The position numbers and the translations under genes were made by a program. From Escherichia phage SUT_E520, in sequence record OQ990040: DNA of 64,000 nucleotides; one strand, given 5' to 3'. Position 1 is the first letter of the stretch. Each line of letters begins with the position of its first letter. Of this stretch, positions 1 through 26,413 are shown in pieces. Below the pieces are notes generated by a model, which was given only the letters and a program-made list of their open reading frames with translations, had not been told where the DNA came from and ran no database searches.

Positions 1-53
1 ACATCCATCCCTTCAGGGGACATAAGATCTGGTACTAATACATCATTTGCCAT
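1..53 (-). CDS. hypothetical protein, N-terminal fragment (gene continues leftward out of window)
   Basis: ATG at 53-51 on minus strand with AGGAGG RBS (revcomp of 57-62); frame open to window edge; immediately downstream of the pb5-like gene stop. Confidence 0.3.
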   Translation of the reverse strand, partial: MANDVLVPDLMSPEGMD

Positions 54-63
54 ATTTCCTCCT

Positions 64-2163
64 TTAGGTAAGGCGTTGAATTATAAGTTTAATATTTGGT
101 AAGCATGCTTTCATGCCAATTATATTGCTCATAGAGGATTCTAACCAAATAGAGATATTATTATTTCCATCATTTCTCATATAATATGTTAGAGTATAGT
201 AACCCGTTTGACCTACTGATCCCGGCAACCCAGATACCCAGTACGGAGTTGGAGTATACCCAGCAGCCTGTAATTTACAAGCATTTACTACAGTACCTTT
301 AATAGTAAAAAATGGTACATATTCTCCTGCAGGTAGGGACAATATTTGGTGAAGTTTTTTATCGATAGTATTGCCACCCATTCTGAACCTACTATCTCCA
401 TATTCGGCGCCTTTAGATAGCATTTCCGTAGGATTAAAGCAGCCAATACCTCCTGCAGACAACCATGTGTCATCCAGGAACTCCATAGTACATACAATTG
501 CGCCATTTCTACTACTATTAAGATCTAGTCCCACGGTGCCAACATGCACGGAACCATTACCCTGAAATACTATGTTACCAGATAGTACAGTACTTCCGCT
601 ACCACCTAGAAGTCTTAAAGGTAAAAGATTCTCACTCCAAACATCTCCATAATTGCTGCCTATTTTTGGAGGATTACTAGAAACATACCAAGATGCTGAA
701 GGTAAAAAGTTATAAATACTAACTACATTAGTATTTAAACCACCAACGTTACCACCNNNNNNNNNNNNNNNNNNNNNNNNNNNNNNNNNNNNNNNNNNNN
801 NNNNNNNNNNNNNNNNNNNNNNNNNNNNNNNNNNNNNNNNNNNNNNNNNNNNNNNNGAAACATACCAAGATGCTGAAGGTAAAAAGTTATAAATACTAAC
901 TACATTAGTATTTAAACCACCAACGTTACCACCTTTAATACTTGGTGCGTTATTGCTTTCCGTAGTGGGCAGCCCAAATGTTGCTATGCCAGAAACTCCA
1001 GTAGAGGGGGCACCCATACTCAAGTTACACCCAACATCACGAAAATCAGCTCTGCTACCTACATTAAAGTTTTTCTCAACAAAGTTAATAAACTTCCATG
1101 ACGTATTATTAACATTAACCCCTTTAATAATAAACTCTCTTGGGCTAAGTTTAATATCATTGCCAGTAAATAGCCCACTATCAATACTGTATCCTGAGCC
1201 ATTGTATACTAGATTGGTAACATACCAAGTAATTTTAGATGGATAAATACCGAGGTGCTCACTATATATACCTATAGGCCCATTAGCAGCATCATTCGGA
1301 TCACCCATACTTTCCCAATAAGCATAGTTAGTGGGATCAGCACGTGCGAAACCTACAGAGTACTTAGGAGCCGAGGGATTGCTAGGGTTATCTATAAAGT
1401 TAAGAGCCCCAGAACTAGAAGCACCGTGCACAGCTCCAGCAGTGGTATAGTTAGGCCCTTCCATACCGTAAAGAACTCTATTGCAAGATCTACCACGAAC
1501 ATATATGGCGTTAAATCCAAAGTTTCTAGCTCCGGGATGCCTAACGTAGTCGCTAGGGATAGTTATGGATCCTGAGCTGGGCACAATATATCCTGAACCA
1601 TCCCAGGCAGACTTATAAAGAGCGGCACCACCTAAGTACATTGCACTAGATGCAAATCCTCTACGCCCACTAAAGGCGCCAAACATATGCTGACATCCAG
1701 TACCATCTCTAAGCTTCTGGGGAATAGTTCCACTAGTTCCACTGTTAAAATAACCTACATCAAGGGATAGATCAGCACTAGCTGTTATTTGTGTTTTTAA
1801 GCCACCCTGGGACATGACCTGTGGATTTATAATTCCGTACGCCTTAGCACCTACCCCCATAGACATACCGGATAACATATGTCTAGAGCCATCTGAGAAC
1901 TCAATCTCCGTCAGCACAACTCTATTAGGATCATTATTATGTAACTGGGTAATTCTGCTAGGCATATCAGACCAGTAGTAATCTCCAGCACCTTGATCTA
2001 GCCTTAACCCTGTGGAGTGAGTTTCTGTTATGATAACATGGGGCATATCTGAATGGAATATGGTCTGAGAGTCAGGATTAATATGTTGATTAGTATCTCC
2101 GCCACTACCCCTGCGCAGAGAGAGTATAGATTTATTATTTAGCTTGCCAGCGAAAAAACTCAT
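64..2163 (-). CDS. oad: receptor-binding tail protein, pb5-like (FhuA-binding RBP); frame spans a 100-N scaffold gap with duplicated flanks, true length about 640 aa
   Basis: 699-aa ORF; N-terminus MSFFAGKLNNKSILSLRRGSGG and overall Gly/Ser/Asn-rich composition match my recollection of T5 pb5; divergently adjacent to an Llp-like lipoprotein gene as in T5; 33 X plus a repeated 27-aa stretch are a scaffolding artefact. Confidence 0.55.
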   Translation of the reverse strand: MSFFAGKLNNKSILSLRRGSGGDTNQHINPDSQTIFHSDMPHVIITETHSTGLRLDQGAGDYYWSDMPSRITQLHNNDPNRVVLTEIEFSDGSRHMLSGMSMGVGAKAYGIINPQVMSQGGLKTQITASADLSLDVGYFNSGTSGTIPQKLRDGTGCQHMFGAFSGRRGFASSAMYLGGAALYKSAWDGSGYIVPSSGSITIPSDYVRHPGARNFGFNAIYVRGRSCNRVLYGMEGPNYTTAGAVHGASSSGALNFIDNPSNPSAPKYSVGFARADPTNYAYWESMGDPNDAANGPIGIYSEHLGIYPSKITWYVTNLVYNGSGYSIDSGLFTGNDIKLSPREFIIKGVNVNNTSWKFINFVEKNFNVGSRADFRDVGCNLSMGAPSTGVSGIATFGLPTTESNNAPSIKGGNVGGLNTNVVSIYNFLPSASWYVXXXXXXXXXXXXXXXXXXXXXXXXXXXXXXXXXXGGNVGGLNTNVVSIYNFLPSASWYVSSNPPKIGSNYGDVWSENLLPLRLLGGSGSTVLSGNIVFQGNGSVHVGTVGLDLNSSRNGAIVCTMEFLDDTWLSAGGIGCFNPTEMLSKGAEYGDSRFRMGGNTIDKKLHQILSLPAGEYVPFFTIKGTVVNACKLQAAGYTPTPYWVSGLPGSVGQTGYYTLTYYMRNDGNNNISIWLESSMSNIIGMKACLPNIKLIIQRLT
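757..856. other. scaffold gap (100 N) with about 77-bp duplicated flanks (680-756 equals 857-933)
   Basis: run of n; identical sequence gaaacataccaagatgctgaagg...accaccaacgttaccacc on both sides. Confidence 0.95.
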
Positions 2164-2182
2164 AAGTTCTCCAAAAATTTAA

Positions 2183-2211
2183 TTGCCTATATTGCTATAA
2201 TTCTGTATAAT
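2183..2211 (+). promoter_or_regulatory. sigma70-type promoter upstream of llp (-35 TTGCCT, 17-bp spacer, -10 TATAAT)
   Basis: TTGCCT at 2183-2188, TATAAT at 2206-2211; AGGAGA RBS before ATG at 2243. Confidence 0.45.
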
Positions 2212-2242
2212 AGTATTATAAATTAAACATAGGAGAATGTAA

Positions 2243-2476
2243 ATGAAAAAATTATTTTTAGCTATGGCAGTGGTACTTCTTTCGGCTTGCTCTACTTTTG
2301 GTCCTAAAGATATTAAATGTGAGGCCTACTATGTACAAGATCATGTGAAATATAAGGCTAATGTTTTTGATAGGAAAGGGGATATGTTTTTGGTGTCACC
2401 AATTATGGCCTATGGGTCTTTTTGGGCTCCCGTAAGCTACTTTACTGAGGGGAATACATGTGAGGGAGTTTTCTAA
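2243..2476 (+). CDS. llp: lytic-conversion lipoprotein Llp-like (FhuA-blocking superinfection exclusion)
   Basis: 77 aa; signal peptide MKKLFLAMAVVLLSAC with lipobox LSAC; small Cys-containing mature part; divergent from oad as in T5. Confidence 0.65.
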   Translation: MKKLFLAMAVVLLSACSTFGPKDIKCEAYYVQDHVKYKANVFDRKGDMFLVSPIMAYGSFWAPVSYFTEGNTCEGVF

Positions 2477-2767
2477 GTAAAAACGACCTTAGTAACTATC
2501 ACCACTTAAGATAATCCTAGCGCAGAATTAGTCCAGGATGCCACACAAGACACTAGGGAAGGTATAATAAGAATATTTATACTAATCACTGCAATTGCTA
2601 GGGTATTCCAAATACCATACTCATAGGAGCATGAAAGATATGTCAAATAAAAGAAAGAACAGACGTGGAGAAGTGTACGAAGCGTGGGTTAATATTTACG
2701 GATTTGGTTTTGTATTATTCTTAATCTTCGTAGGTTTTTGGTTAGCAGCTATGGCGGGGTGGCTATA

Positions 2768-2923
2768 ATGGAATGGGTAATTATTGGCATATTCGTCTTA
2801 TTGATACTTCTCTTTGCAGGCTTACGTGTAATAGATACCTCTGTAACCCAAACAGAGATTAAATTAATGCAGTTGAGCAATAGATTATCTAGAATTGAAA
2901 CTTTATTAGAGGAGCGTAAATAA
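2768..2923 (+). CDS. small single-pass membrane protein, tandem paralog 1
   Basis: ATG at 2768; N-terminal TM helix MEWVIIGIFVLLILLFAGL followed by charged coiled-coil tail ending RIETLLEERK. Confidence 0.4.
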   Translation: MEWVIIGIFVLLILLFAGLRVIDTSVTQTEIKLMQLSNRLSRIETLLEERK

Positions 2924-3030
2924 TGGAATGGGTAATTATTGCACTACTGGGGATTGTGATTATTGGGCAATGTATCTTAGATAATCACTTAGCTAGAATC
3001 GAAACCTTACTATCGGAGAAACATAAATGA
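2923..3030 (+). CDS. small single-pass membrane protein, tandem paralog 2 (35 aa)
   Basis: ATG overlaps upstream stop (TAATG); MEWVIIALLGIVIIG...ARIETLLSEKHK shares N- and C-terminal motifs with paralog 1. Confidence 0.35.
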   Translation: MEWVIIALLGIVIIGQCILDNHLARIETLLSEKHK

Positions 3031-3221
3031 TGGAAGTGGCAATTACACTAATGGTAATATTAGTCTGGGTAATCCTCATTGTCTCTCGTATCGTGTATCT
3101 CCGCCTAAAAACTCTAGAAGCCCAGGTAAAACAACAACAAGTTATTCTAGAAAAGCTAGTACTACTGCAACGTTGTGATAGCACCCGTATTCTGCAAATT
3201 GAGAGGGAATTAGATGTTTAG
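3027..3221 (+). CDS. small single-pass membrane protein, tandem paralog 3
   Basis: ATGA start/stop overlap with paralog 2; TM helix then coiled-coil. Confidence 0.4.
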   Translation: MMEVAITLMVILVWVILIVSRIVYLRLKTLEAQVKQQQVILEKLVLLQRCDSTRILQIERELDV

Positions 3222-3459
3222 TATTATAATTGCTTTTATTATCGGGATACTCGCGGGAGTTTTCGGGACGACTGCGGCAATCAATAAGCATCGGGAATAT
3301 ATTGCGGGAGTGACGCGGGAGATTGCGGAAAGGGAGCGGAAGTTTGACGAGAAACGTGCGGAGTTTGAGCGAGAGTGGTCGGATGGATCTCGGGCGTCGC
3401 GGAAGAGATTCCGGGAGTTCAGACCAGAACACAGGTTTGATGACCCTTCTATGCGCTAA
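3214..3459 (+). CDS. small single-pass membrane protein, tandem paralog 4 (Arg/Glu-rich tail)
   Basis: overlaps paralog 3 stop; TM helix MFSIIIAFIIGILAGVFG then highly charged tail. Confidence 0.4.
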   Translation: MFSIIIAFIIGILAGVFGTTAAINKHREYIAGVTREIAERERKFDEKRAEFEREWSDGSRASRKRFREFRPEHRFDDPSMR

Positions 3460-3610
3460 TTCGACTTTTGTCAAATTTCATAAGATTACACATGGAGGTG
3501 TGTCCAGTGGCTCCCCAGATGAGAATGAGTCTCATTACCGCCCGGTACTTAGCAAGCTAATAGTCACGGCATGTTATCATTACACACCGTGACTATTTCA
3601 ACTTTAATTA

Positions 3611-4345
3611 TTACGCAACTTTTAATTTCTCAATATATTGTTGCGGGCTGCAACTATATTCTGCGCGTTCTTCCTCGGTCATACTTTCCCAACATAATTT
3701 CAAACGATCAGCTAGGAACTGATAATCATTATCATCATCGAGAGATTCATCGATAAAGGTTTCACCTATCAATGCAACGCCGATTGATAGAATATCGTTA
3801 ATGGCTTGCGCGTCCAGCGTTTTAAATCCGTATGATGCCGCCGCTGATAGCACGCCTTTATGATCGTCAATCATTGTAAAGTCAGCGTTTGGATATAATT
3901 GTTTAAATAATTCAAAATAATACGATTTATAAATGGCGTCTTTGCTGTGGTATATCTCGCTAACTTTATCAGCTTCAAAATATTTGTGTAGTGTATCGCG
4001 GGAAAATACACGGATATTACTATCACCACGACCGCGCAACCCTTGTTTACGCAAATAATAATAGTCCGACTTGCTCATTAGTCGAGCGGTGCAAATAATG
4101 TTTAAAGTATTTGCATCATTCATACATTGGCGCATATATTCAACCAATGGCAATAAAGTATCTTGCATTATTAAATGATGTTTGCAGGCTTCATTTTTAT
4201 ACTTATTTAAATCTAAATTGCCCTCACTATCAAAGCAAGGCGCTACACGATGGAAAGAATTAATGATAGTGCCGTCTAAATCCCAAATCATGACGCGGGA
4301 AATATGCGGGAAATTACGGGAAATATTCATAATAGCTTTATTCAT
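3611..4345 (-). CDS. dmp: HAD-family 5'-deoxyribonucleotidase, Dmp-like (pre-early)
   Basis: 244 aa; N-terminal HAD motif I IWDLDGTII; size and position match T5 dmp. Confidence 0.55.
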   Translation of the reverse strand: MNKAIMNISRNFPHISRVMIWDLDGTIINSFHRVAPCFDSEGNLDLNKYKNEACKHHLIMQDTLLPLVEYMRQCMNDANTLNIICTARLMSKSDYYYLRKQGLRGRGDSNIRVFSRDTLHKYFEADKVSEIYHSKDAIYKSYYFELFKQLYPNADFTMIDDHKGVLSAAASYGFKTLDAQAINDILSIGVALIGETFIDESLDDDNDYQFLADRLKLCWESMTEEERAEYSCSPQQYIEKLKVA

Positions 4346-4369
4346 TTGTTACGTTCTCCATTAAAGGGA

Positions 4370-4469
4370 NNNNNNNNNNNNNNNNNNNNNNNNNNNNNNN
4401 NNNNNNNNNNNNNNNNNNNNNNNNNNNNNNNNNNNNNNNNNNNNNNNNNNNNNNNNNNNNNNNNNNNNN
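4370..4469. other. scaffold gap (100 N)
   Basis: run of n. Confidence 0.95.
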
Positions 4470-4646
4470 GCGCGCGAATACCACAAAATAAAGCAAATAG
4501 GCAAGTAATTTTTTCATTTATATTTGCTTTGCCCTACTTGACAAAATCTAAAAAGCTCGTGGTAACGATAAACGGCTTATCCCCTTATGATGGGATGGCT
4601 AAAAACTTTATTGCGTTCTGGAGCGTTTTAGGCGCATTCTAGCCTT

Positions 4647-5223
4647 GTTGATAACTTATCCCCAAAAGCAAAAATGAAATTTTCCTAGTTATCCACTTGA
4701 CTTTTATTTTCCAGTGGATAACTACTTATTTTATGAAATAAATTAATTGACTTTTATTTGTTAGTATGCATCGGAAAGATAGCAGACTAATAATTGCTAG
4801 AATGATAATCATGCTGGTGGATTGTAACGACCTGAATTATTAGCAGACTATTAATCACGGAAAAATCTCATTAGCCAACTAACTATTTCATGATATATAA
4901 TATACATATAAATTAATGAGAAATAATAACTATAAGAAATCATCTAGCTAAGTGAGAACCACTATCATTTAAGTTATACACAAAGTTATCCACAGCACTT
5001 TTTGACTTGACACGATAGGCGGCGNNNNNNNNNNNNNNNNNNNNNNNNNNNNNNNNNNNNNNNNNNNNNNNNNNNNNNNNNNNNNNNNNNNNNNNNNNNN
5101 NNNNNNNNNNNNNNNNNNNNNNNNTATACAGTAGGATAAGCTGTTGATAAGTCTGTTGATAACGCCTCAAAATGGCTAGGATTTTGTCAAGTCAAATCGT
5201 GCTGTTGATAAGTCTGTGGATAA
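4647..5223. promoter_or_regulatory. cluster of DnaA-box-like 9-mers (TTATCCACA and one-mismatch variants), both orientations
   Basis: perfect TTATCCACA at 4986-4994 and its reverse complement at 5215-5223; near-consensus boxes at 4647-4664, 4689-4697, 4713-4721, 5142-5150, 5154-5162, 5203-5211. Confidence 0.45.
5025..5124. other. scaffold gap (100 N)
   Basis: run of n. Confidence 0.95.
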
Positions 5224-5224
5224 C
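5139..5224. repeat. two copies of a 25-bp direct repeat gctgttgataagtctgt(t/g)gataac, each carrying two DnaA-box-like motifs
   Basis: copies at 5139-5163 and 5200-5224. Confidence 0.6.
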
Positions 5225-5240
5225 TTAAATAATAGTGTTT

Positions 5241-5404
5241 CTCACTTCCATTCTTAAATACGAATCAGTATCATTCGCATTTCACTATCTAACTAATAAT
5301 CATTCCACTTTTTAAATGAGAATCGTTTCACTTCCTGAATAATTCTCACTTCCATTCTTAAATGCGAATTATTATCATTCACATTCCGCTTTTTAAATGA
5401 GAAT
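5241..5404. repeat. two families of direct repeats in an AT-rich noncoding segment
   Basis: ctcacttccattcttaaat(a/g)cgaat at 5241-5265 and 5345-5369; ctttttaaatgagaat at 5308-5323 and 5389-5404. Confidence 0.5.
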
Positions 5405-5433
5405 GATTCTCATTATCATTCGTATTCAGGCAA

Positions 5434-5451
5434 GCAGGGCAATTGCCCTGC
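5434..5451. repeat. 18-bp perfect palindrome gcagggcaattgccctgc
   Basis: self-complementary sequence directly upstream of the iteron array. Confidence 0.6.
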
Positions 5452-5456
5452 GCTTT

Positions 5457-6056
5457 TGTGCAAATCCGACATTTGCCCCCATGGATTACGCGTGGGCGTG
5501 TATGTGCGAATCCGACAATTTTTGGTAGTGTGCAAATCCGACCCGAAAAATTTTTATAATGTGCGGATCCGACAATGAATTTTCCTAAAAACTCCAGCAA
5601 TCCGATGCTGCGCATCAATCCTGTGGAATTAACTAGAATATGTGCAAATCCGACATGGGTTTATTTGTGCGAATCCGACAAGATTTTTGTGACTTCGATT
5701 GGAGAGTGTGTGATTGTAAGAGTTTGGGGAGAAGTTGAGAGATCGAGAAAAATTTGAGGGAACTGCGAGAGGGGCGCATGTTTGGTGCGTAGCACCTGAT
5801 TTGCGGGGATTTTGGGGAAGAGTTGAGAAGATTTGGGTTAATTTGAGATTAGTGCAGATAAAGTAAAATCTTATTAGCTAAATGGGGCAAAATAGCTTGA
5901 CAAGTGAAAGTTTCTGTGGCTCTAAAAACTCAGGCAATCATGGGCCTTCGGCCCGAAATAATGCTGCCATTTTCAAGAGATTATATGTTCCTAAAAACTT
6001 AGGCAATTGTGCAAATCCGACCATAAATTTCTAGAAACACAATGTGCAAATCCGAC
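5457..6056. repeat. iteron array: 8 copies of 14-bp TGTGC(A/G)(A/G)ATCCGAC
   Basis: copies at 5457, 5502, 5529, 5559, 5641, 5666, 6008 and 6043, irregular spacing, same orientation. Confidence 0.7.
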
Positions 6057-6100
6057 AGTAATTTCTGGAAATGTGTTTTCAAAAAATGTCTCCTAGAAAT

Positions 6101-6173
6101 AACCGCCCTCCCCATAACCGCCCTGTATTAAACCGCCTAGTATATGTTCCTAGAAACTTAGGAGAACCGCCCT
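6101..6173. repeat. four copies of AACCGCC(C)T
   Basis: copies at 6101, 6116, 6131 and 6165. Confidence 0.5.
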
Positions 6174-6593
6174 AGAAAGAGTGAGTATTTCGTGAGAACT
6201 CTGGAGTTTCTAGGAAAGTGTTGTGCCATCCTAGCAGATGAGCGGCAACAGGTGTATCATCTTGAATGTAAATTATGTGGTCAAAAGTTTTACTTTTATT
6301 TTAAATATAAGATCCCCCAGGGTTCTCATATAGAGCTTTGCCCCCGCCAGAAGGTCTCGTGATGTTTCTAGCAATTTATATTAAATTACTTATTAACTTG
6401 TCCTGTCGCTCCGTATCCTCCGCTACAAGTTAGTAATTTTAAATTACTGAACCACCACACCTTCTGTGTGGCAACTCTAAATGGTTAATTCTATTAACTC
6501 ATAGAGTTATGATAACATACATTTAGCTATCTGTCAACGAGAGTTTGTATTTGAGTCTCGGTACAGGTATTGTGCACCGAGACATGCAGGATC

Positions 6594-7478
6594 TTACAGT
6601 AACTCTTGGTATGCTTTTTGGTACGCCTCAGTGTCAGTAGGTGTATCTTTTGCTAGTGCAATTAGTTCATCTGTTATCTGAATGTTCGTATTATAACGTG
6701 TGTGGAACTCGTTAGGAATTTCTAGGTATCTATTGATGAATGCTGCAGCAAGCGGTGTGACTAAACCAATCTCTAGAGATAGCTTAACTTGTTTTTCGTA
6801 GATTAAATATTGAGAATCAGATGGGGTTGGTGGGGTTACATCAATTTTCTCGGGTTCTTTTTCTGGAAGCAATGGATTATTATATAATGCTTCATCTGGA
6901 AGCACAGATTTACGCTCTTTAAATATATAAGTTTCTAGATCCGATGCTTTAGATCCTGAGTATACCGCAAAGATGCTAGCTTTACCCTGTGATGCCCTAA
7001 CTGGTAAATAACTAGTAGGATAGCTTCTTAATGCATCATGGAATGGACTTCCTGAGTACTTGTATGTATCTCCATAGAGATCATCAATATTCATTCGTTC
7101 ATCTTCAAAGATGTGAAATGACTTAAATGGTGGAATGGTGAAGTATTCCATCTGTAACCCATAAACTAAGAAACGATGTGCATATGCACTGATTTTTAAG
7201 ACTGTGAATGCTTTTTCACCTTCTTTATGGGCGTTGCCTTTTGAAGTAACTTGGTAACGTTTACAAAACATCTCTACTAGACGTTTCTCATTAATACTAA
7301 GGGTGGAGTACAGTCGTCCACTTAATCCTATAAGTGCATCGAACATAAATGCTAGTTTATCTTTTTCTTCCTGGGTTAGTTCAGGAAATGGAAGTACTTT
7401 AGCATCAGGAACACTATTATTTTTCTTAGGTTTTGTTTTACCAGCGTTTTGTCTTAGTTTATCTTTAAAGTTATACAT
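6594..7478 (-). CDS. hypothetical protein (294 aa), first gene of the minus-strand early string
   Basis: long ORF, co-directional with neighbours. Confidence 0.5.
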   Translation of the reverse strand: MYNFKDKLRQNAGKTKPKKNNSVPDAKVLPFPELTQEEKDKLAFMFDALIGLSGRLYSTLSINEKRLVEMFCKRYQVTSKGNAHKEGEKAFTVLKISAYAHRFLVYGLQMEYFTIPPFKSFHIFEDERMNIDDLYGDTYKYSGSPFHDALRSYPTSYLPVRASQGKASIFAVYSGSKASDLETYIFKERKSVLPDEALYNNPLLPEKEPEKIDVTPPTPSDSQYLIYEKQVKLSLEIGLVTPLAAAFINRYLEIPNEFHTRYNTNIQITDELIALAKDTPTDTEAYQKAYQELL

Positions 7479-7555
7479 TATTATCTCCCATTTTTAAGGT
7501 CTGGATGACCTTCTTTTTATTTTAGAGCCTCCGTAGAGGCTCATGTATTAGAGGA

Positions 7556-8170
7556 TTAGCTACCTCTCTTATCTTCATTAATAGCAGCTCCCAACGCCTC
7601 CATAATAGCATCCTCTAAACTTCCATGTTTACCAGGATTATTAAAATGAATAGTACAAACAGAACTCCTAGAAACTCCAGCATCCGCAGGTGCTACGCTT
7701 CGCATATCAGATTCAAAAGCTTCTTGAGTATGTTTTAGCTGTACAGATGGGCCGTAATCTTCCACAAACTTATATGACTGCGTACTACTTACCACACCCC
7801 CACAAGGAATATTGTGCATATCCGACATTAATCTTTTATCGGAGTTATTCAGCATTGCGATTGGTCCGGACGGCCATGAATCTCGAATAGTTACTGGAGC
7901 ACTAGGACGGTTCACCTCAGTCTTCACGAGTTTATAACCAGCGTCTATTAGTGCATTAATCAGGTTATCAGCCGGGATGCGAGCCGTGCCAAAAATCTTA
8001 CGAGCATCTTCGAGCTTACTCTCAAGATCTTTACAGGCTTTAAGGTCGGTGTGTGCAAATGTTAGCTTCATAGATTTGAATTGTACAGTAGCAGTTAAAT
8101 CTTTAAAGCTGTAATCCCATGTGTTCAGTTCATGGTCTGGTACTACTTGAATAGGCTGTTGTGTAAACAT
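7556..8170 (-). CDS. hypothetical protein (204 aa)
   Basis: ORF in minus-strand gene string. Confidence 0.5.
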   Translation of the reverse strand: MFTQQPIQVVPDHELNTWDYSFKDLTATVQFKSMKLTFAHTDLKACKDLESKLEDARKIFGTARIPADNLINALIDAGYKLVKTEVNRPSAPVTIRDSWPSGPIAMLNNSDKRLMSDMHNIPCGGVVSSTQSYKFVEDYGPSVQLKHTQEAFESDMRSVAPADAGVSRSSVCTIHFNNPGKHGSLEDAIMEALGAAINEDKRGS

Positions 8171-8355
8171 TATTTATTCTCCAGTTTGTCTAACAGTTTA
8201 TGGGCTGCTAGATTATATTGTTTAAGTTCACGGTTAAGGATTTGGTTCTCACACTTTAACTCTAGATTCTTGTTGTTAAGAATGTTGCAGATTAGTAGAA
8301 GTGCTAGTATTAGTAACAGAGAACCTACGAGCATTAAAAGAAAAAGAGTTTCCAT
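8170..8355 (-). CDS. small membrane protein (61 aa)
   Basis: hydrophobic N-terminus then coiled-coil; abuts neighbours. Confidence 0.35.
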   Translation of the reverse strand: METLFLLMLVGSLLLILALLLICNILNNKNLELKCENQILNRELKQYNLAAHKLLDKLENK

Positions 8356-8588
8356 TATTTGATTCCCATGTAACGTTTAAGATATACGATGAAGTCTTCT
8401 GCTGTATGCTCTACACTACCTTGAGCTACGAATAGCTTGAGAGCTTCACGTTGTAGTTTGAGCCCCGCTACCTCACCACGTAATTTTACTACATCTTCTG
8501 CTAATTCTCTGGCTCTACGCATAATAGCAAAAGATACAAGTACTACGATGAATAACATAACTACTAAAATAATTGCTATGATTTCCAT
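8355..8588 (-). CDS. small membrane protein (77 aa)
   Basis: N-terminal TM helix IIAIILVVMLFIVVLVSFAI. Confidence 0.35.
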   Translation of the reverse strand: MEIIAIILVVMLFIVVLVSFAIMRRARELAEDVVKLRGEVAGLKLQREALKLFVAQGSVEHTAEDFIVYLKRYMGIK

Positions 8589-8866
8589 ACTAACATCCAG
8601 CTTTTATCACACATTTGGGCATGATCTATCAATTCATTCATTGATGTATTGTTATCATAAATGCACTCTAGTATATACCTTCTGTCAAATTCGTCAACCA
8701 AATATTCTACGTTATTTATTACTACTTTATACAGATCTGGGACTAGAGAGCATGTATTTGGTATGGGGCGGCTGCTTAATTCTATTTCATTATAGCCCCA
8801 TGTTGTTTTAAATAGTTTGTTACTAAGTGCTGCTAATGGATTTGACCATATAATATAGCTACTCAC
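8576..8866 (-). CDS. hypothetical protein (96 aa)
   Basis: ORF in gene string. Confidence 0.4.
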   Translation of the reverse strand: MSSYIIWSNPLAALSNKLFKTTWGYNEIELSSRPIPNTCSLVPDLYKVVINNVEYLVDEFDRRYILECIYDNNTSMNELIDHAQMCDKSWMLVWKS

Positions 8867-9305
8867 TATTTATCTCCATTCTTAACTTTGAAAACTTATT
8901 ATACCAAACTATATGATTATCGTCAATTACAAATTTATGATAACATGCTGGTACGGTATAAGTTCCATAATCCGTGACACGCTGCACAACCTTGTGTGCG
9001 CACAGTCGACAACCATGCCCTTCTAAATGAGATCTAGCAGTTTGCCAGTAATAACCATCATGATCTGGACAATAGATCTCGACTTGCTGTTGCATTGTTT
9101 TATAATTTACATGCTCATATCCAAAGAAAGCTCCATGAACTGCAACAGCTTTCTTGATAAATATAATATTTAGTGCTTCTTGTTGAAAGTCGGGATGTAG
9201 CTGCTTAATCTTGGTTCTATTAATAGACCCATCCGATTTGATAAACCTATTTATTGGGAAGTTGTTAGCTTCCTCGATTAATAATTCATTTATTTTATCA
9301 CGCAT
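8859..9305 (-). CDS. hypothetical Cys/His-rich protein (148 aa), possible Zn-binding or HNH-like
   Basis: motifs CPDHDG, GHGCRLCAHK. Confidence 0.4.
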   Translation of the reverse strand: MRDKINELLIEEANNFPINRFIKSDGSINRTKIKQLHPDFQQEALNIIFIKKAVAVHGAFFGYEHVNYKTMQQQVEIYCPDHDGYYWQTARSHLEGHGCRLCAHKVVQRVTDYGTYTVPACYHKFVIDDNHIVWYNKFSKLRMEINSE

Positions 9306-9306
9306 G

Positions 9307-9525
9307 TTACTTATTAAATAACTTATTTAGTTTGCAGTATAAGTCTTTTGCTTGTTCTTCGGATAGCCAAATAATATTGGGGGATGTTCCTCCACCTTTT
9401 TGAGCTAATCGTACTGTTTTATTTTTGCTTATTTCACAGGTTACAGCAGATTGATCTTCCGTAGGGCTATATCTAGCCTTTAGGTAGTTATCTAATGTTT
9501 TCATACTAAGTTCCTTGAAACACAA
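9307..9525 (-). CDS. hypothetical protein (72 aa)
   Basis: ORF in gene string. Confidence 0.35.
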   Translation of the reverse strand: MCFKELSMKTLDNYLKARYSPTEDQSAVTCEISKNKTVRLAQKGGGTSPNIIWLSEEQAKDLYCKLNKLFNK

Positions 9526-9558
9526 AAGGTCAGAACAATTAAGTCCTGGCCTCTAGAA

Positions 9559-9930
9559 TTAGTGGAGTTGTTTACCACTTCTTAAAATAGTGGCCGTTTC
9601 CATAAGATTTAACGTTATATCACGCTTTTTGATTTGTTTGTCCAGTTCATCGGTACGTTTGCCAATGTAAGCGTTAATAGCCATATTCATAGCTGAGGCG
9701 AGATCTTCTTTGGTTATCTCTTCATTATCTAAAGCTAATTTAGCTAAAGAATCGAAAGTACTAGAAAGTCCTATAAGATCTGAGGTTTCACTGGCCAAAA
9801 TAGGGTTAATATTATCTATTGTTACTTCCAACATAGAGTTAACAATATCTTCTCCGTCTACTAGACCAGATTCAATATTACTCTCCCATTCCTTCATCTG
9901 CTCCAGCAATGGATTTTTCTTTTCTGTCAT
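9559..9930 (-). CDS. hypothetical acidic protein (start uncertain; internal Met chosen to limit overlap)
   Basis: ORF 9559-9996 overlaps upstream gene by 119 nt; internal Met at 9930 is more plausible. Confidence 0.35.
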   Translation of the reverse strand: MTEKKNPLLEQMKEWESNIESGLVDGEDIVNSMLEVTIDNINPILASETSDLIGLSSTFDSLAKLALDNEEITKEDLASAMNMAINAYIGKRTDELDKQIKKRDITLNLMETATILRSGKQLH

Positions 9931-10339
9931 GGTAGAGGTTTCCTGTGTCAGTTGGTAAGAAAGCCGATTGAGCTTTAGGTGGATGTTGTTTAGCAATCCA
10001 GTTAAGAATCAGTACACGACTAGGAACAATATCGGTATTATACCAGAAATCATGAACCCATTGACGAGCATCCTCAAACTTACCAAATTTATACGCTTTC
10101 TTGAACAATTCAAACCCAAAACAATCTGGTGTAAAATCTACTTCACGATATTGAATTACTTTAGAACCAGTTAAATCTTGGATAGCTGCATTAATTTCTG
10201 TATGGGAGAATTTTGTTTCGTGAAACTTATTAAAGAATCGGTAGTTGAAACGTCCGTTCGTTTCGACAAATAACTGGATAAAGAGATCGTTAAATTGGTT
10301 ATCAAACCAGTAATTCTGTAGTTGTTGTAGTGCTGTCAT
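9878..10339 (-). CDS. hypothetical protein (153 aa)
   Basis: ORF in gene string. Confidence 0.45.
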   Translation of the reverse strand: MTALQQLQNYWFDNQFNDLFIQLFVETNGRFNYRFFNKFHETKFSHTEINAAIQDLTGSKVIQYREVDFTPDCFGFELFKKAYKFGKFEDARQWVHDFWYNTDIVPSRVLILNWIAKQHPPKAQSAFLPTDTGNLYHDRKEKSIAGADEGMGE

Positions 10340-10536
10340 TTACGAACTCCGTTAATTGCCACGATGATGCCTTCGTACATAAAAGGAAGTAGTTTAGAAG
10401 TGTAGAAGATATTTTCCGTTATTCCTAGATGTCGAAAAAGTATATTAAATAATGCTGTTAGAAATACAATCTGAGGCAGTAATACAAAATACTCAGTTAC
10501 AATCTTTGGTGCCTGATAAACAAGACGTTTTATCAT
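10336..10536 (-). CDS. small membrane protein (66 aa)
   Basis: hydrophobic segment LLPQIVFLTALFNILF. Confidence 0.3.
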   Translation of the reverse strand: MIKRLVYQAPKIVTEYFVLLPQIVFLTALFNILFRHLGITENIFYTSKLLPFMYEGIIVAINGVRK

Positions 10537-10635
10537 TGTTTTTAAGTCTCCTTATTACTTTGGCCTGCTCCACAATAATAAAAACTGCGAGCACTAATAG
10601 TGCTAGTAGCCCCGCAGTAATTGGTACTAAATCAA

Positions 10636-10962
10636 TCATGGGAGACGCCATACGTAATTAGCTGTCTGTAGGATCTTAGGTGTGTCATCATGATACATTA
10701 CTACAGACTTTGGTGAATAACTATCAGCTAGTTCTTTACGAATCATTTCACACTCTTCACCAGTATCAATATTTTTAACTATCACTTTCATATTAAGTGG
10801 TGTTAATACAGAAAGTGGTTTCCAAGAGTCCTCAATCTCAATTCCTACCTTTTTCTCAATTATCATGAGAACTTCCAATGTATCATCTGGAATACTAATA
10901 TTATTATTCACAAACTGTAATATCTCATGTAAGGTATTTAATTCATTAAAATTAAGCTTCAT
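10636..10962 (-). CDS. hypothetical protein (108 aa)
   Basis: ORF in gene string. Confidence 0.4.
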   Translation of the reverse strand: MKLNFNELNTLHEILQFVNNNISIPDDTLEVLMIIEKKVGIEIEDSWKPLSVLTPLNMKVIVKNIDTGEECEMIRKELADSYSPKSVVMYHDDTPKILQTANYVWRLP

Positions 10963-11197
10963 CTTTAATAATATCCTCTACCATATCACAAGACTGTTGC
11001 AATTCATCAGCAATACGTTTAACATCGGTTTTTGTTACTTTACCGATTAGCATTACCAGTAACATAGAAAAGATAATAAAAGGTACTGGAATAACAAATA
11101 ATGCTACCTTAGCTACATTCTTTGGTGTCCATGTATGGTACTTAGTAACTAGTACACCAACCACAACTAAATAAAATGCGAGAATAAACATCATCAT
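10952..11197 (-). CDS. membrane protein (81 aa, two TM segments)
   Basis: MMMFILAFYLVVVGVLV and VIPVPFIIFSMLLVMLIG. Confidence 0.4.
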   Translation of the reverse strand: MMMFILAFYLVVVGVLVTKYHTWTPKNVAKVALFVIPVPFIIFSMLLVMLIGKVTKTDVKRIADELQQSCDMVEDIIKDEA

Positions 11198-11475
11198 TTT
11201 TTAATCTCCGTAATTATCTGTGCACGCATTACTTTATTAGGTAGTTTTGTATTCCCAGCTATTGCTTCAATATTGTTTAGTTTTTCTTTTAGAATATCTG
11301 AGCGTCTTTGCGTTAGCTCAATATCTTGTTCTTGTTCTATTAAGCGACAGTGGAGTCCACTATTAGTAATACGCATACTCTCCATATTTTTTCGTATGCT
11401 TACAATACCAATAACCCCACCAATCGCTGCTAGTGTCATAAGCACTAGCAGTCCAATAAGAATTTCTATAATCAT
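11194..11475 (-). CDS. membrane-anchored coiled-coil protein (93 aa)
   Basis: N-terminal TM MIIEILIGLLVLMTLAAIGGVIGIV. Confidence 0.4.
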   Translation of the reverse strand: MIIEILIGLLVLMTLAAIGGVIGIVSIRKNMESMRITNSGLHCRLIEQEQDIELTQRRSDILKEKLNNIEAIAGNTKLPNKVMRAQIITEIKK

Positions 11476-11897
11476 TTGTCCGTTACTCCATTACTACATT
11501 TAATGTAGGGGCTTACAGTTTCGTAGAATTTAATCTTGACTAAAGATCCGTTAACTGCTCTACAAAATCTCTTACCCTCTTCAATTTGAAGTTTGGCCTC
11601 AATTGAATCTTCCATTTTGTAGGCATCTACTACTTCAACCCCAGAATCTTTAGATAAGGCTTCATCTAGTTTTATTTGCCTGAGCACAAGGTCTACTTCT
11701 GCAAGCATTATTTTATGTTTTGATAGTAACTTATTGCTTTCTGCCCTAGCTTTAATTTCTGGACTGATATGTTCCTCTATTACAACTTCCTTCACTTCGT
11801 CACGTTGATTAAGTATATAGTCGGTAACACCAATCGATATTGCTAAAGAAAGCAGCGAGTTAACTGCTATAGTATAGAAAAATTGGCCATTAGTCAT
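11472..11897 (-). CDS. membrane-anchored protein (141 aa)
   Basis: N-terminal TM then soluble domain. Confidence 0.4.
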   Translation of the reverse strand: MTNGQFFYTIAVNSLLSLAISIGVTDYILNQRDEVKEVVIEEHISPEIKARAESNKLLSKHKIMLAEVDLVLRQIKLDEALSKDSGVEVVDAYKMEDSIEAKLQIEEGKRFCRAVNGSLVKIKFYETVSPYIKCSNGVTDK

Positions 11898-13705: not shown

Positions 13706-14580
13706 TAAAGAATCCTCTGTACACCACAGCTATCTTCCCGGAGTGTAGTAAATGTGGTGATTTTGCCCGTTTCATCATTAACTTGCGCAACCGTCAACTG
13801 CCCGTTGAAAACACCGCCAGTATCAAGGTAAACACGGTTTTTATAAAGAAGTGGGTAAGGTACTCCAGTATGCCCATGAAACACGAAATCTACCCCTTTA
13901 ACTTCTGGCACTTCTACCATATATTTTTCTTTAAATCCTGAATAACGCTGGAAATACGGGTGTTCCTCACCATTTTTGGACAAGTAGAAGCCTATTTCTT
14001 GGATTACATCTCGATCCCATAAATATGGTTCAATATGGTATCCAGGATGGTCATGTGGGTCTTCCTTAGCTGCTTCTACTTGTGCAATAAGATTATCCCA
14101 TACTGGGGTTTCTACTTCATTACCACATTCTTTGTACGTAAAAGGTACACCACCATGAACAACACCATACTTCTTACCACGATGCCTAACAGTTAGGAAT
14201 ACTGGCATTTTTTCAGCCATATCTTCGGCGATATTTTTAATGGTGTCTGCATCCAGCTCTTCCATAGCCCATATACCACCGTTATACATCCAATTAGCCC
14301 AATCTCCTGCAATCATAAATTGGTCGTGATTACCACGGACACTGATAAAATGTGGATTATACAGGAATTTGGCTAAAACTTGTAGGTTTTGTGTGCCTCG
14401 GTCAATTAAGTCACCAACACATACTAAGCAATCTTTCTTGCTATTATACCCAGCTAATTTCAACGCATCTTCCAGCAAATCATTGCATCCATGAATATCA
14501 CCAACGAAAAACAAGTTGGCATCATCTGGCACTACTAGAGTTTTATGTACATTAAATTCTTTTTTCATAATTATTCCCAA
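13705..14580 (-). CDS. Ser/Thr protein phosphatase (PPP family)
   Basis: motifs GDIHG, GDLIDRG, GNHD. Confidence 0.65.
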   Translation of the reverse strand: MGIIMKKEFNVHKTLVVPDDANLFFVGDIHGCNDLLEDALKLAGYNSKKDCLVCVGDLIDRGTQNLQVLAKFLYNPHFISVRGNHDQFMIAGDWANWMYNGGIWAMEELDADTIKNIAEDMAEKMPVFLTVRHRGKKYGVVHGGVPFTYKECGNEVETPVWDNLIAQVEAAKEDPHDHPGYHIEPYLWDRDVIQEIGFYLSKNGEEHPYFQRYSGFKEKYMVEVPEVKGVDFVFHGHTGVPYPLLYKNRVYLDTGGVFNGQLTVAQVNDETGKITTFTTLREDSCGVQRIL

Positions 14581-24349: not shown

Positions 24350-24425
24350 TGGTAGTTAGTAGTGGATTTGAACCACTGTAGTCGCTCCGTATGAAGGAGG
24401 TGCATAACCACTCTGCCAACTAACT
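24350..24425 (-). tRNA. tRNA with CAU anticodon (Met, fMet or Ile2)
   Basis: 7-bp acceptor AGTTAGT/ACTAACT, T-arm AGTGG-TTCAAAT-CCACT, anticodon loop TTCATAC, encoded CCA. Confidence 0.65.
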
Positions 24426-24592
24426 AGTTAATTCTTTATAGGTTAGATCTAGAAGATCTTTCTTACTGATAAGTCCTTCTCTATATTGGTCAATAAACAT
24501 ATCTATTCTAGAGTTCTCTGAGACTTCTATATCAGAAAGTTCAGCAAATATTTTTGCAAGTTTATCAATATCTTCCATACATAACCTTAATT

Positions 24593-24669
24593 TGGTACTC
24601 CGGGAGGGATTTAAACCCCCGATCTCTCGGTTATCAGCCGAGTGCTTTAGATCGCTAAGCTACCGAAGC
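24593..24669 (-). tRNA. tRNA-Ile (anticodon GAU)
   Basis: acceptor GCTTCGG/CCGGAGT with G-U pairs, anticodon arm CTCGG-CTGATAA-CCGAG, T-loop TTTAAAT, CCA. Confidence 0.7.
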
Positions 24670-24670
24670 A

Positions 24671-24898
24671 TTAACATTTTGCAGCAGAACGTTTGCCATT
24701 TCTAGGTGCACCTGGAAGTCGTGCACGTTCTGCCATTCTTCGCTTAATCTTTGAGATATTTTCTAGTGTTTGTTCTTCAGGCTTAATACCTGAAACACTA
24801 CACCACTGATTACCATCCCATGCGGTAATGATCATAACACCATTACTCATGATCTTTTCTGTAAAAGTAATCCTCATTATAGCAACTCGTCTAAGCAA
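24671..24898 (-). CDS. hypothetical protein (75 aa)
   Basis: ORF between tRNA genes. Confidence 0.3.
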   Translation of the reverse strand: MLRRVAIMRITFTEKIMSNGVMIITAWDGNQWCSVSGIKPEEQTLENISKIKRRMAERARLPGAPRNGKRSAAKC

Positions 24899-25170
24899 GA
24901 GGTATATTTAAGTTTACCATCTTTATCTACTTTGATTTCGACTTCCGCTCGTGGTACTTGACGAACTACACCATGAATCATCTTATAGCGAATGCCTTTA
25001 GCTGGTTCATGCTCTTTTGGAAATACTTGCTTAACCGTTACTACCTTAAAACCCTCACGCGGTGTTAACACTACTACTTGATCACCTTCTTTGATCTTCC
25101 AAGAGCCAGGAAATTCATAGGTATAGCGTTGACCACCAGTTTGGAACACAACAGAAAGATAACGTTTCAT
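24877..25170 (-). CDS. hypothetical protein (97 aa)
   Basis: ORF; T5-type promoter motif immediately upstream at about 25180-25215. Confidence 0.4.
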   Translation of the reverse strand: MKRYLSVVFQTGGQRYTYEFPGSWKIKEGDQVVVLTPREGFKVVTVKQVFPKEHEPAKGIRYKMIHGVVRQVPRAEVEIKVDKDGKLKYTSCLDELL

Positions 25171-25237
25171 TTGGCTTCCCTCTCATTAATTTATATAAAT
25201 ATTATAACAATAAATAAGAGAGAAAGCAAATGAATTT

Positions 25238-25405
25238 TTAATAAAGTTTAGTCACTTCATAAACTATACTACGAGATTCTTTATTACGTTCTATTAAATT
25301 AGAATATGCTTTTTCAGCTTCATTTTTAGTATTAAAGTCTATAACGTGGGAGGTATTCGCTCTATTTGATTGACTATACCAGATAACTACTAATAATTTA
25401 AACAT
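25238..25405 (-). CDS. hypothetical small protein (start trimmed to avoid tRNA overlap)
   Basis: ORF 25238-25432 overlaps the tRNA at 25420; internal Met used. Confidence 0.25.
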   Translation of the reverse strand: MFKLLVVIWYSQSNRANTSHVIDFNTKNEAEKAYSNLIERNKESRSIVYEVTKLY

Positions 25406-25419
25406 AATAGTCCTTAAGT

Positions 25420-25506
25420 TGGTGCTGGGCACAGGATTCGAACCTGTAACGGGATTACTCCTCCTGATTACAAATCAGGTGCATTCAACCATTCTGCCAA
25501 CCCAGC
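25420..25506 (-). tRNA. tRNA, anticodon UGU (Thr-type) with long variable arm, 87 nt; isotype uncertain
   Basis: acceptor GCTGGGT/GCCCAGC, anticodon arm CCTGA-TTTGTAA-TCAGG, T-arm ACAGG-TTCGAAT-CCTGT, CCA. Confidence 0.5.
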
Positions 25507-25671
25507 AGAACCCGTTATTTCAACGGGATTTCTTTTTCAATAACAGGAGACTTATCAGTCATAACCGCCATTGCCATTTGTTGTAGAAATTCAAAGGTGA
25601 AGGCTACACGTTCTTCACCAATCTCTACTTCTACACGTTTCTTTTGTTTATCGATCTTGACTTTTAGGTTA

Positions 25672-25923: not shown

Positions 25924-25939
25924 AATGTTTCCTTAAAGT

Positions 25940-26015: not shown

Positions 26016-26023
26016 TTATTGTT

Positions 26024-26099: not shown

Positions 26100-26105
26100 A
26101 TTATT

Positions 26106-26181: not shown

Positions 26182-26193
26182 ATAATTTTTATT

Positions 26194-26388: not shown

Positions 26389-26413
26389 ATTTTATTTCCT
26401 ATTTAAGTTAATT

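What the first reader, a model, noticed from the sequence alone, without database searches (positions are those of the whole stretch)
4346..6590. Expected pre-early genes (A1/A2-like) not seen; probably lost in scaffold gaps
In T5 the terminal-repeat pre-early region carries dmp, A1 and A2. Here only a Dmp-like gene is present between the late-region end and the early genes, and two 100-N gaps at 4370-4469 and 5025-5124 break the region. The true sequence may be several kb longer, or this phage may have a reduced pre-early module.
Basis: inference. Interest (0 to 1): 0.4.

Follow-up and report, generated by a model that had tools for sequence, protein, structure and literature searches.

The report
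Assembly gaps hide T5 A1/A2 genes
The essential T5-type DNA-injection genes A1 and A2 are not missing from this phage: about 8 kb of its terminal repeat dropped out of a draft assembly and was replaced by two 100-N spacers, so this is an assembly artefact and not biology.

Summary
Runs of exactly 100 N lie at 4370-4469 and 5025-5124. dmp (3611-4345, minus strand) is the only pre-early gene present, and no A1 or A2 is encoded anywhere in the 64 kb.

The cause is the assembly. All 63,700 non-N bases are 100.000% identical, with no mismatch or indel, to the closed genome of Escherichia phage SUT_E1520 (OQ885479.1). In that genome the flanks of gap 2 lie 4,262 bp apart; this stretch holds A1, A2 and six small ORFs. 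The flanks of gap 3 lie 3,794 bp apart, with ten small ORFs between them. A third N run (757-856) joins two contigs that overlap by 77 nt, so "100 N" is a spacer and not a measured length.

The authors' methods fit this: SPAdes contigs were joined by hand. A sister record, SUT_E420, has 21 such spacers and also lacks A1/A2.

The real sequence inside the interval is the known T5 non-coding repeat architecture: Repeat Regions 1+2 and 3, paired DnaA boxes, DRD repeats and the nick motif.

A genuine loss of A1/A2 is very unlikely. [quoted passage not shown]

Interest is low.

The parts
757..856 (.). Gap 1: a 100-N spacer between two contigs that overlap by 77 nt. No sequence is missing, and it lies inside the receptor-binding protein gene.
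   Evidence: Window 680-756 is identical to 857-933. The flanks map to L001 1501-2256 and 2180-5692, which overlap. The 699-aa ORF at 64-2163 is therefore artefactual; the true RBP is 640 aa.
3501..5922 (.). Collapsed single copy of the roughly 10.3-kb direct terminal repeat (the pre-early, first-step-transfer region). Only 2,222 of about 10,278 bp are present.
   Evidence: The left end was placed by homology of window 3501 (TGTCCAGTGG...) to base 1 of T5 AY587007 and of vB_EcoS_MM-1. The right end was placed by alignment to T5 10139 and MM-1 10407. The physical ends were not determined here.
3611..4345 (-). dmp, the 5'-deoxyribonucleotidase gene. It is the only pre-early protein gene left in the scaffold.
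   Evidence: 94% identical to T5 Dmp over 244 aa. phrog_415 at 2.1e-57. 100% identical to WJN63564.1 of SUT_E1520.
4370..4469 (.). Gap 2: a 100-N spacer standing for 4,262 bp. The missing stretch holds homologues of T5 ORF002 and ORF003, A1 (554 aa), two small ORFs, A2 (135 aa), the conserved 9.2-kDa protein (DUF7177) and one further small ORF, all on the minus strand.
   Evidence: The flanks map to L001 5692 and 9955 in the identical genome SUT_E1520; its annotation is. A1 matches phrog_1745 at 1.5e-243 and is 94% identical to T5 A1. A2 matches phrog_1725 at 4.3e-52 and is 100% identical to T5 A2.
4470..5024 (.). A 555-bp island contig. It is the non-coding T5 Repeat Regions 1+2, fused because this phage has no HNH insert. 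It includes inverted repeat C (4950-5012) with a DnaA-box pair at 4974-4982 and 4986-4994.
   Evidence: Maps to L001 9955-10509 at 100% and to T5 5137-5418 and 5942-6030. The inverted repeat 4950-5012 / 5185-5247 is 87% complementary. The nomenclature follows Davison, bioRxiv 10.1101/866236.
5025..5124 (.). Gap 3: a 100-N spacer standing for 3,794 bp. The missing stretch holds the rest of the IRC-spacer-IRD repeat with its IRD DnaA-box pair, ten small plus-strand pre-early ORFs (homologues of T5 ORF011-017, including a DUF7566 protein) and the first bases of IRD'.
   Evidence: The flanks map to L001 10509 and 14304. Annotation is, Pfam. Both gap edges fall inside the arms of the inverted repeat 10435-10566 / 14295-14426.
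5125..6593 (.). Non-coding T5 Repeat Region 3, the injection-stop-signal region. Features: IRD' (cut) 5125-5156; DRB1 5141-5163; DRB2 5202-5224; IRC' 5208-5246; DRC1-4 5252-5421; palindrome J 5434-5451; eight DRD copies (TGTGCRAATCCGACA) starting at 5457, 5503, 5529, 5560, 5641, 5666, 6008 and 6043. The terminal-repeat end equivalent is near 5922.
   Evidence: 90% identical alignment to T5 9341-10858, with each annotated T5 feature transferred. The repeat families were found independently. DnaA*/DnaA pairs with 3-bp spacing lie at 5142/5154 and 5203/5215. No Rfam match.
5446..5453 (+). Sequence equivalent to the T5 major single-strand nick site 1 (7.9%), CCCTGCGC.
   Evidence: Identical octamer at the aligned position of the T5 feature 9661-9668. 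Nicking itself was not tested.
6594..7478 (-). The first gene outside the terminal repeat, a homologue of T5 ORF018. It marks the right edge of the finding.
   Evidence: phrog_8583 at 1.5e-155. Aligned to T5 10856-11740.

Best explanation
The window comes from a draft, multi-contig assembly of a T5-like phage (genus Tequintavirus), probably SUT_E520, OQ990040. Its SPAdes contigs were ordered and joined end to end with 100-N spacers. Two interior pieces of the collapsed 10.3-kb terminal repeat were never put into the scaffold. One is 4,262 bp and carries A1, A2 and six small ORFs. The other is 3,794 bp and carries ten small ORFs. The phage itself almost certainly has the complete, ordinary T5 pre-early module. 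The real sequence left inside the interval is dmp's upstream 24 bp and the well-described non-coding repeat regions: Repeat Regions 1+2 and 3, with IRC / IRD'-IRC' inverted repeats, paired DnaA boxes, DRC/DRD direct repeats and the 7.9% nick motif. In T5 these regions hold the pre-early promoters and the injection stop signal. Shown here: the gaps, the identity to a closed genome, what that genome holds at the gap positions, and that N runs are placed between overlapping contigs. Inferred: that this phage's own DNA holds the same 8,056 bp.
For: (1) All five non-N blocks of the window (63,700 bases) match SUT_E1520 OQ885479.1 with 0 mismatches and 0 indels. (2) In that closed genome the gap-2 flanks are 4,262 bp apart and the gap-3 flanks 3,794 bp apart, with A1, A2 and 16 other ORFs annotated between them. 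(3) Gap 1 has identical 77-mers on both sides. So a 100-N run here can stand for -77 bp; it is a spacer between k=77 SPAdes contigs and not a size estimate. (4) The sister record SUT_E420 (labelled 'partial genome') is also 100% identical to SUT_E1520. It has 21 runs of 100 N: 17 sit on 77-nt overlaps and 4 on real dropouts of 5,547, 222, 652 and 475 bp. The largest dropout again removes A1/A2, but with different edges. [quoted passage not shown] (6) Independent closed relatives EC148 (98.9%) and MM-1 (95.7%) are collinear across the whole repeat. [quoted passage not shown] In the phage collection, hits by organism name track one another for dmp, A1 and A2: Escherichia 129/127/127, Salmonella 273/275/271, Klebsiella 81/81/81.
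Against: No reads from this phage were available, so the content of the gaps is inferred from an identical genome and was not observed. The reason the contigs broke where they did is unresolved. The assignment of the window to SUT_E520 is circumstantial: OQ990040 is absent from the searchable collection. Only 64 kb of the source record is visible, so a misplaced A1/A2 contig elsewhere in the scaffold cannot be excluded directly.
Confidence: 0.95

Rival explanations
1. The phage really has a reduced pre-early module. It keeps dmp and the repeat regions but has lost A1, A2 and most other first-step-transfer genes through two deletions.
For: Much of the T5 pre-early region is dispensable: 13 of 17 genes can be deleted. 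Natural T5-like phages vary in this region; DT57C and Gostya9 carry deletions. Neither the window nor the whole SUT_E420 record encodes A1 or A2.
Against: A deletion would assemble as continuous sequence and would not leave contig ends joined by N. Gap 1 shows the N runs are spacers. The genes said to be lost are exactly the two that cannot be lost. The phages grow well, with bursts of 350-441 reported for SUT_E420/E520. It would take two separate deletions that leave a 555-bp island, in a genome otherwise identical at every base to one that has the genes. SUT_E420 would need a different deletion with different edges.
Confidence: 0.01
2. The lysate is heterogeneous in the terminal repeat. It might hold a subpopulation with deletions or rearrangements, or a second closely related T5-like phage. 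Such a mixture would branch the assembly graph there, so the interior contigs were ambiguous and left out. A1/A2 are present in the viable majority genome.
For: Exact 77-nt overlaps at contig ends are the signature of branch points in a k=77 graph and not of zero coverage. SUT_E1520 has no internal exact repeat of 55 nt or more that could cause such branches. Both edges of gap 3 fall inside the arms of the 132-bp inverted repeat.
Against: The contig ends do not coincide with segments shared exactly with the lab's other T5-like phage, SUT_E1620. They do not coincide with boundaries of polymorphism against MM-1, EC148 or T5. The left edge of gap 3 does not sit at the end of a matching run of the inverted repeat, as an inversion model would require. 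Every assembled base is identical among the three SUT records.
Confidence: 0.03
3. The A1/A2 and ORF011-017 contigs exist in the same scaffold but were placed elsewhere, outside the 64-kb window.
For: Only 64 kb of a record of roughly 100 kb is visible. The contigs were ordered by hand.
Against: The authors report A1/A2 annotations only for SUT_E1520 and SUT_E1620. In the fully visible sister scaffold SUT_E420 the lost A1/A2 piece is nowhere in the record.
Confidence: 0.01

Closest known systems
Left terminal repeat (first-step-transfer, pre-early region) of bacteriophage T5, AY587007.1 1-10139
   Same: The order is the same: left terminus, dmp, (ORF002, ORF003, A1, two small ORFs, A2, 9.2-kDa protein), Repeat Regions 1/2, (opposite-strand ORF011-017), Repeat Region 3, end of repeat, ORF018. 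Dmp is 94% identical. A1 is 94% and A2 100% identical in the identical genome SUT_E1520. IRC, IRD', IRC', DRB, DRC, DRD, palindrome J and the nick motif are all found at aligned positions.
   Different: The bracketed blocks are replaced by N in the window. There is no HNH insert between Repeat Regions 1 and 2, so they are fused. There are eight DRD copies where T5 has nine. The repeat is about 10,278 bp against 10,139 bp in T5.
Escherichia phage SUT_E1520, OQ885479.1 (closed single contig)
   Same: Identical at all 63,700 determined bases of the window. Same laboratory and same sequencing run type.
   Different: It has no N and carries the 8,056 bp missing from the window, including A1 and A2. 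The record keeps a 77-nt end overlap and has the terminal repeat collapsed.
Escherichia phage SUT_E420, OQ990039.1 (partial genome)
   Same: It is built the same way, as contigs joined by 100 N. It is identical in sequence, and A1/A2 are also lost in a terminal-repeat gap.
   Different: It has 21 gaps in place of three. The terminal-repeat dropout has other edges (L001 6395-11941, 5,547 bp). It therefore keeps the ORF002 homologue and ORF012-017 but lacks the 555-bp island.
Engineered minimal T5 mutant (delta-L delta-R) with four pre-early genes (bioRxiv 10.64898/2026.04.02.716235)
   Different: The viable minimal set keeps A1 and A2 (plus hdi and 009) and loses dmp. The scaffold shows the opposite, dmp kept and A1/A2 gone, which is the combination expected to be non-viable.

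Membership tests
Tequintavirus (T5-like) terminal-repeat pre-early module | dmp (5'-deoxyribonucleotidase) next to the left terminus | tested here: met
   Window 3611-4345 (minus strand) is 94% identical to T5 Dmp and matches phrog_415 at 2.1e-57. It lies about 110 bp from the terminus equivalent at 3501.
Tequintavirus (T5-like) terminal-repeat pre-early module | A1 (DNA transfer protein / metallophosphatase), essential for second-step transfer | tested here: inconclusive
   A1 is not encoded in the 64-kb window, but its expected position is an N run. The 100%-identical closed genome has a 554-aa A1 there (phrog_1745 at 1.5e-243; 94% identical to T5 A1).
Tequintavirus (T5-like) terminal-repeat pre-early module | A2 (DNA-binding protein), essential for second-step transfer | tested here: inconclusive
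   A2 is not encoded in the window, and its expected position is the same N run. The identical genome has a 135-aa A2 that is 100% identical to T5 A2.
Tequintavirus (T5-like) terminal-repeat pre-early module | Conserved non-coding repeat regions: IRC-spacer-IRD and IRD'-spacer-IRC' with DnaA/DnaA* boxes in pairs 3 bp apart, plus DRC and DRD direct repeats | tested here: met
   IRC lies at 4950-5012 and IRC' at 5185-5247, 87% complementary. Three box pairs with 3-bp spacing lie at 4974/4986, 5142/5154 and 5203/5215; the fourth (IRD) pair lies in gap 3 and is visible in L001 10510-10545. Eight DRD and four DRC copies are present.
Tequintavirus (T5-like) terminal-repeat pre-early module | Direct terminal repeat of about 10 kb at both ends of the virion DNA | not testable with these tools
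   By homology to the annotated repeats of T5 and MM-1 the repeat spans window 3501-5922, which is 10,278 bp in SUT_E1520. The physical ends and the doubled read depth need reads.
Tequintavirus (T5-like) terminal-repeat pre-early module | Two-step DNA injection | not testable with these tools
   This has been shown experimentally only for T5 and BF23.
Scaffold spacer of unknown length (100-N convention) | Runs of exactly 100 N | tested here: met
   Three runs, each of 100 N. There are 21 in the sister record.
Scaffold spacer of unknown length (100-N convention) | The N length is unrelated to the true distance between the flanks | tested here: met
   The true distances in the identical closed genome are -77, +4,262 and +3,794 bp. 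In SUT_E420 the distance is -77 bp at 17 gaps and 222 to 5,547 bp at four.
Scaffold spacer of unknown length (100-N convention) | Documented multi-contig origin | tested here: met
   PMC10668671 methods: SPAdes 3.15.3 contigs joined in SnapGene. That the window is one of these phages is inferred from its 100% identity and from the absence of OQ990040 in the collection.

The most novel reading that the evidence does not exclude
The lysate truly contains genomes in which the interior of the terminal repeat is deleted or rearranged. One example would be a defective, helper-dependent subpopulation that lacks A1/A2 and rides along with the complete phage. That heterogeneity, and not poor assembly, would then be what broke the graph inside the repeat in two independent preparations.
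Probability: 0.03. Interest if true: 0.35.

Novelty: not a real feature. Interest (0 to 1): 0.05.

Why it matters
It matters only as quality control. Taken at face value, the scaffold would suggest a T5-like phage that lacks the two genes needed to finish injecting its own DNA, and that would be remarkable. It is instead a draft-assembly artefact. The record underestimates the genome by about 8 kb, and by about 18 kb if the second copy of the terminal repeat is counted. It creates a false 699-aa receptor-binding-protein ORF. It would mislead gene-content comparisons of Demerecviridae, for example counts of how conserved A1/A2 are. The biology actually present in the interval, the T5 injection-stop and repeat region, is already described.

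Tried and rejected
(a) A1/A2 elsewhere in the window. tblastn with 18 proteins of the missing blocks found only dmp.

(b) Internal repeats as the cause of the contig breaks. SUT_E1520 has no exact repeat of 55 nt or more apart from its artefactual 77-nt end overlap. The only long repeat near the gaps is the 132-bp inverted repeat, at 79% identity with a longest exact run of 15 nt.

(c) Cross-contamination with the laboratory's other T5-like phage, SUT_E1620. Exact shared segments of 60 nt or more do not coincide with any contig end, and the RBP genes are unrelated.

(d) A mixture with a close variant. The nearest differences to MM-1, EC148 or T5 do not line up with the contig ends.

(e) Inversion of the 3.8-kb block between the inverted-repeat arms. 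The right contig does start where a matching run begins, but the left contig runs 12 nt into the non-matching spacer, so the pattern does not fit.

(f) A structured RNA in the non-coding 2 kb. There is no Rfam match at gathering threshold in 1-9000.

(g) Enrichment of DnaA boxes. Across the whole window the consensus TTWTNCACA is not enriched (8 found, 7.9 expected). Only the local paired arrangement is meaningful, and that is already known from T5.

(h) Fetching OQ990040 to confirm the source. The record is not in the collection.

Full report
**Observation.**
The window holds three runs of exactly 100 N, at 757-856, 4370-4469 and 5025-5124. The finding named the last two correctly. Between the late-region end and the first early gene, the only recognisable pre-early gene is the 244-aa ORF at 3611-4345 (minus strand).
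- The late-region end comprises the receptor-binding protein gene (64-2163, minus strand), llp (2243-2476, plus strand) and five small ORFs.
- The first early gene is the T5 ORF018 homologue at 6594-7478 (minus strand).
- The 244-aa ORF is 94% identical to T5 Dmp and matches phrog_415.

No A1, A2 or any other gene of the missing blocks is encoded anywhere in the 64 kb.

**What the window is.**
Megablast against the phage collection gave two 100%-identical records from one laboratory: SUT_E1520 (OQ885479.1, complete, 108,306 bp) and SUT_E420 (OQ990039.1, partial genome). I rebuilt the whole SUT_E1520 genome and aligned the window to it. All five non-N blocks, 63,700 bases, match with no mismatch and no indel. 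The mapping is:
- window 1-756 = L001 1501-2256
- window 857-4369 = L001 2180-5692
- window 4470-5024 = L001 9955-10509
- window 5125-9000 = L001 14304-18179

Three consequences follow.
- Gap 1 joins two contigs that overlap by 77 nt. Window 680-756 is identical to 857-933, so nothing is missing there and the 699-aa RBP ORF is an artefact.
- Gap 2 stands for 4,262 bp.
- Gap 3 stands for 3,794 bp.

**What lies in the gaps.**
In SUT_E1520 the 4,262 bp carry eight minus-strand ORFs. They include A1 (554 aa; phrog_1745 'DNA transfer protein', 1.5e-243; 94% identical to T5 A1) and A2 (135 aa; phrog_1725; 100% identical to T5 A2). The conserved 9.2-kDa protein (DUF7177) is also there. The 3,794 bp carry ten plus-strand ORFs homologous to T5 ORF011-017, including a DUF7566 protein. 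Two independently sequenced closed genomes are collinear with SUT_E1520 over the whole region: EC148 from Denmark (98.9% identical, one alignment block) and vB_EcoS_MM-1 from Germany (95.7% identical, terminal repeats annotated).

**Why the N runs are spacers and not measurements.**
[quoted passage not shown] It reports A1/A2 annotations only for SUT_E1520 and SUT_E1620. A 77-nt overlap is the signature of adjacent SPAdes contigs at k=77. SUT_E1520 itself still carries the same 77 nt at both ends of the record.

I reconstructed the whole sister record SUT_E420.
- It has 21 runs of 100 N.
- Its 22 contigs are all 100% identical to SUT_E1520.
- 17 junctions are 77-nt overlaps.
- Four are true dropouts, of 5,547, 222, 652 and 475 bp.

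The 5,547-bp dropout again removes A1 and A2 but has different edges (L001 6395-11941). A1/A2 are nowhere else in that record. The window is most likely the fourth phage of that study, SUT_E520 (OQ990040). That record is not in the searchable collection, so this assignment is an inference.

**What the real sequence inside the interval is.**
T5 AY587007.1 carries a detailed feature table. Alignment to it transfers nearly every feature.
- Window 4470-5024 is the non-coding Repeat Regions 1+2. They are fused here because this phage has no HNH insert.
- Within it, inverted repeat C lies at 4950-5012.
- Window 5125-6593 is Repeat Region 3. It holds:
  - IRD' (truncated by the gap), 5125-5156
  - DRB1, 5141-5163
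  - DRB2, 5202-5224
  - IRC', 5208-5246
  - DRC1-4, 5252-5421
  - palindrome J, 5434-5451
  - the CCCTGCGC motif of the 7.9% nick, 5446-5453
  - eight DRD copies (TGTGCRAATCCGACA) between 5457 and 6057

The repeat finder recovered these repeat families independently. Three of the four DnaA/DnaA* box pairs with 3-bp spacing described by Davison (bioRxiv 10.1101/866236) are present, at 4974/4986, 5142/5154 and 5203/5215. The fourth pair lies in gap 3.

By homology to base 1 and to the repeat ends of T5 and MM-1, the collapsed terminal repeat spans window 3501-5922. That is 10,278 bp in SUT_E1520, of which only 2,222 bp (22%) are in the scaffold. There is no Rfam match in 1-9000. All of this is known T5 anatomy. 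In T5 these regions hold the pre-early promoters and the injection stop signal.

**Could the loss be real?**
It is very unlikely, for five reasons.
- A deletion would have assembled as continuous sequence.
- Two separate deletions that leave a 555-bp island would be needed, in a genome otherwise identical at every base to one that has the genes.
- SUT_E420 would need a different deletion.
- Reverse genetics in T5 shows that 13 of 17 pre-early genes are dispensable, but A1 and A2 are the only essential ones. A viable minimal mutant keeps A1, A2, hdi and 009 and lacks dmp, which is the reverse of the scaffold. A1 is conserved in all Demerecviridae (bioRxiv 10.64898/2026.04.02.716235).
- In the phage collection, hits for dmp, A1 and A2 track one another by host name: Escherichia 129/127/127, Salmonella 273/275/271, Klebsiella 81/81/81. 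SUT_E420 accounts for one of the two Escherichia records with dmp but no A1/A2.

In addition, the phages are reported to grow with bursts of 350-441.

**What remains unexplained.**
I could not determine why the contigs broke where they did.
- SUT_E1520 has no internal exact repeat of 55 nt or more.
- The breakpoints do not coincide with segments shared with SUT_E1620.
- They do not coincide with polymorphism boundaries against three relatives.
- Both edges of gap 3 fall inside the arms of the 132-bp IRC-spacer-IRD / IRD'-spacer-IRC' inverted repeat, and the right contig starts inside palindrome D. An inversion model still fails on the left edge.
- The left edge of gap 2 lies 17 nt before the equivalent of T5 palindrome A.

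A minor heterogeneous subpopulation in the lysate therefore cannot be excluded without reads. I give it about 3%.

**Verdict.**
The 'absence' of A1/A2 is an assembly artefact. The underlying locus is an ordinary T5 pre-early region and terminal repeat. Novelty: not a real feature. Interest: 0.05.

Noticed in passing
window 64-2163 (gap at 757-856): The receptor-binding protein ORF reads as 699 aa with 34 X and a duplicated 25-aa stretch (GGNVGGLNTNVVSIYNFLPSASWYV). This happens because a 100-N spacer was placed between two contigs that overlap by 77 nt. The true gene is 1,923 nt, or 640 aa.
   Followed up: yes
window 33696-33772; OQ885479.1 1-77 and 108230-108306: The 'complete' SUT_E1520 record has the same 77 nt at both ends, so it is an untrimmed circular SPAdes contig. 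It holds a single collapsed copy of the terminal repeat. The unique length is 108,229 bp, and virion DNA should be about 118.5 kb.
   Followed up: yes
whole window vs OQ885479.1 and OQ990039.1; PMC10668671 Tables 1-2: The three SUT Tequintavirus sequences are identical at every assembled base, including the RBP. Yet the paper describes SUT_E1520 as a myovirus (contractile tail 102 x 24 nm, head 109 x 90 nm) with a different host range from SUT_E420/E520. That points to stock contamination or a sample mix-up at sequencing and not to three distinct phages.
   Followed up: partly
L002/L011/L012 (OQ990039.1, whole record): SUT_E420 has 21 runs of 100 N. Seventeen sit on 77-nt contig overlaps, each duplicating 77 nt and breaking genes such as DNA polymerase, the exonuclease subunits, portal and the origin-binding protein. 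Four sit on real dropouts. The record could be closed almost entirely by merging the overlaps.
   Followed up: yes
window 5125 (L001 14304) and window 4369 (L001 5692): Two of the four edges of the real dropouts lie in or within 17 nt of short perfect palindromes, the equivalents of T5 palindrome D and palindrome A. Both edges of gap 3 lie inside the arms of the 132-bp inverted repeat. This may reflect hairpin-related coverage loss. It was not resolved.
   Followed up: partly
window 4470-5024: The 555-bp island, and in SUT_E1520 the wider stretch L001 9256-10536, is 100% identical to phage vB_EcoS_MM-1, while the flanking pre-early genes are about 95% identical. The non-coding repeat region is thus more conserved than the coding sequence around it, as Davison noted for T5-like phages.
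   Followed up: partly
window 24350-35700: There are 21 tRNA genes, all on the minus strand: 20 in a cluster at 24350-32090 and a tRNA-Arg at 35626-35700. This is the usual T5 tRNA / deletable region and is unrelated to the finding.
   Followed up: no
window 6192-6362 (+): A 56-aa ORF with two CxxC-like motifs lies inside Repeat Region 3, beyond the terminal-repeat end. It is not annotated in T5, SUT_E1520 or EC148 and is probably spurious.
   Followed up: no
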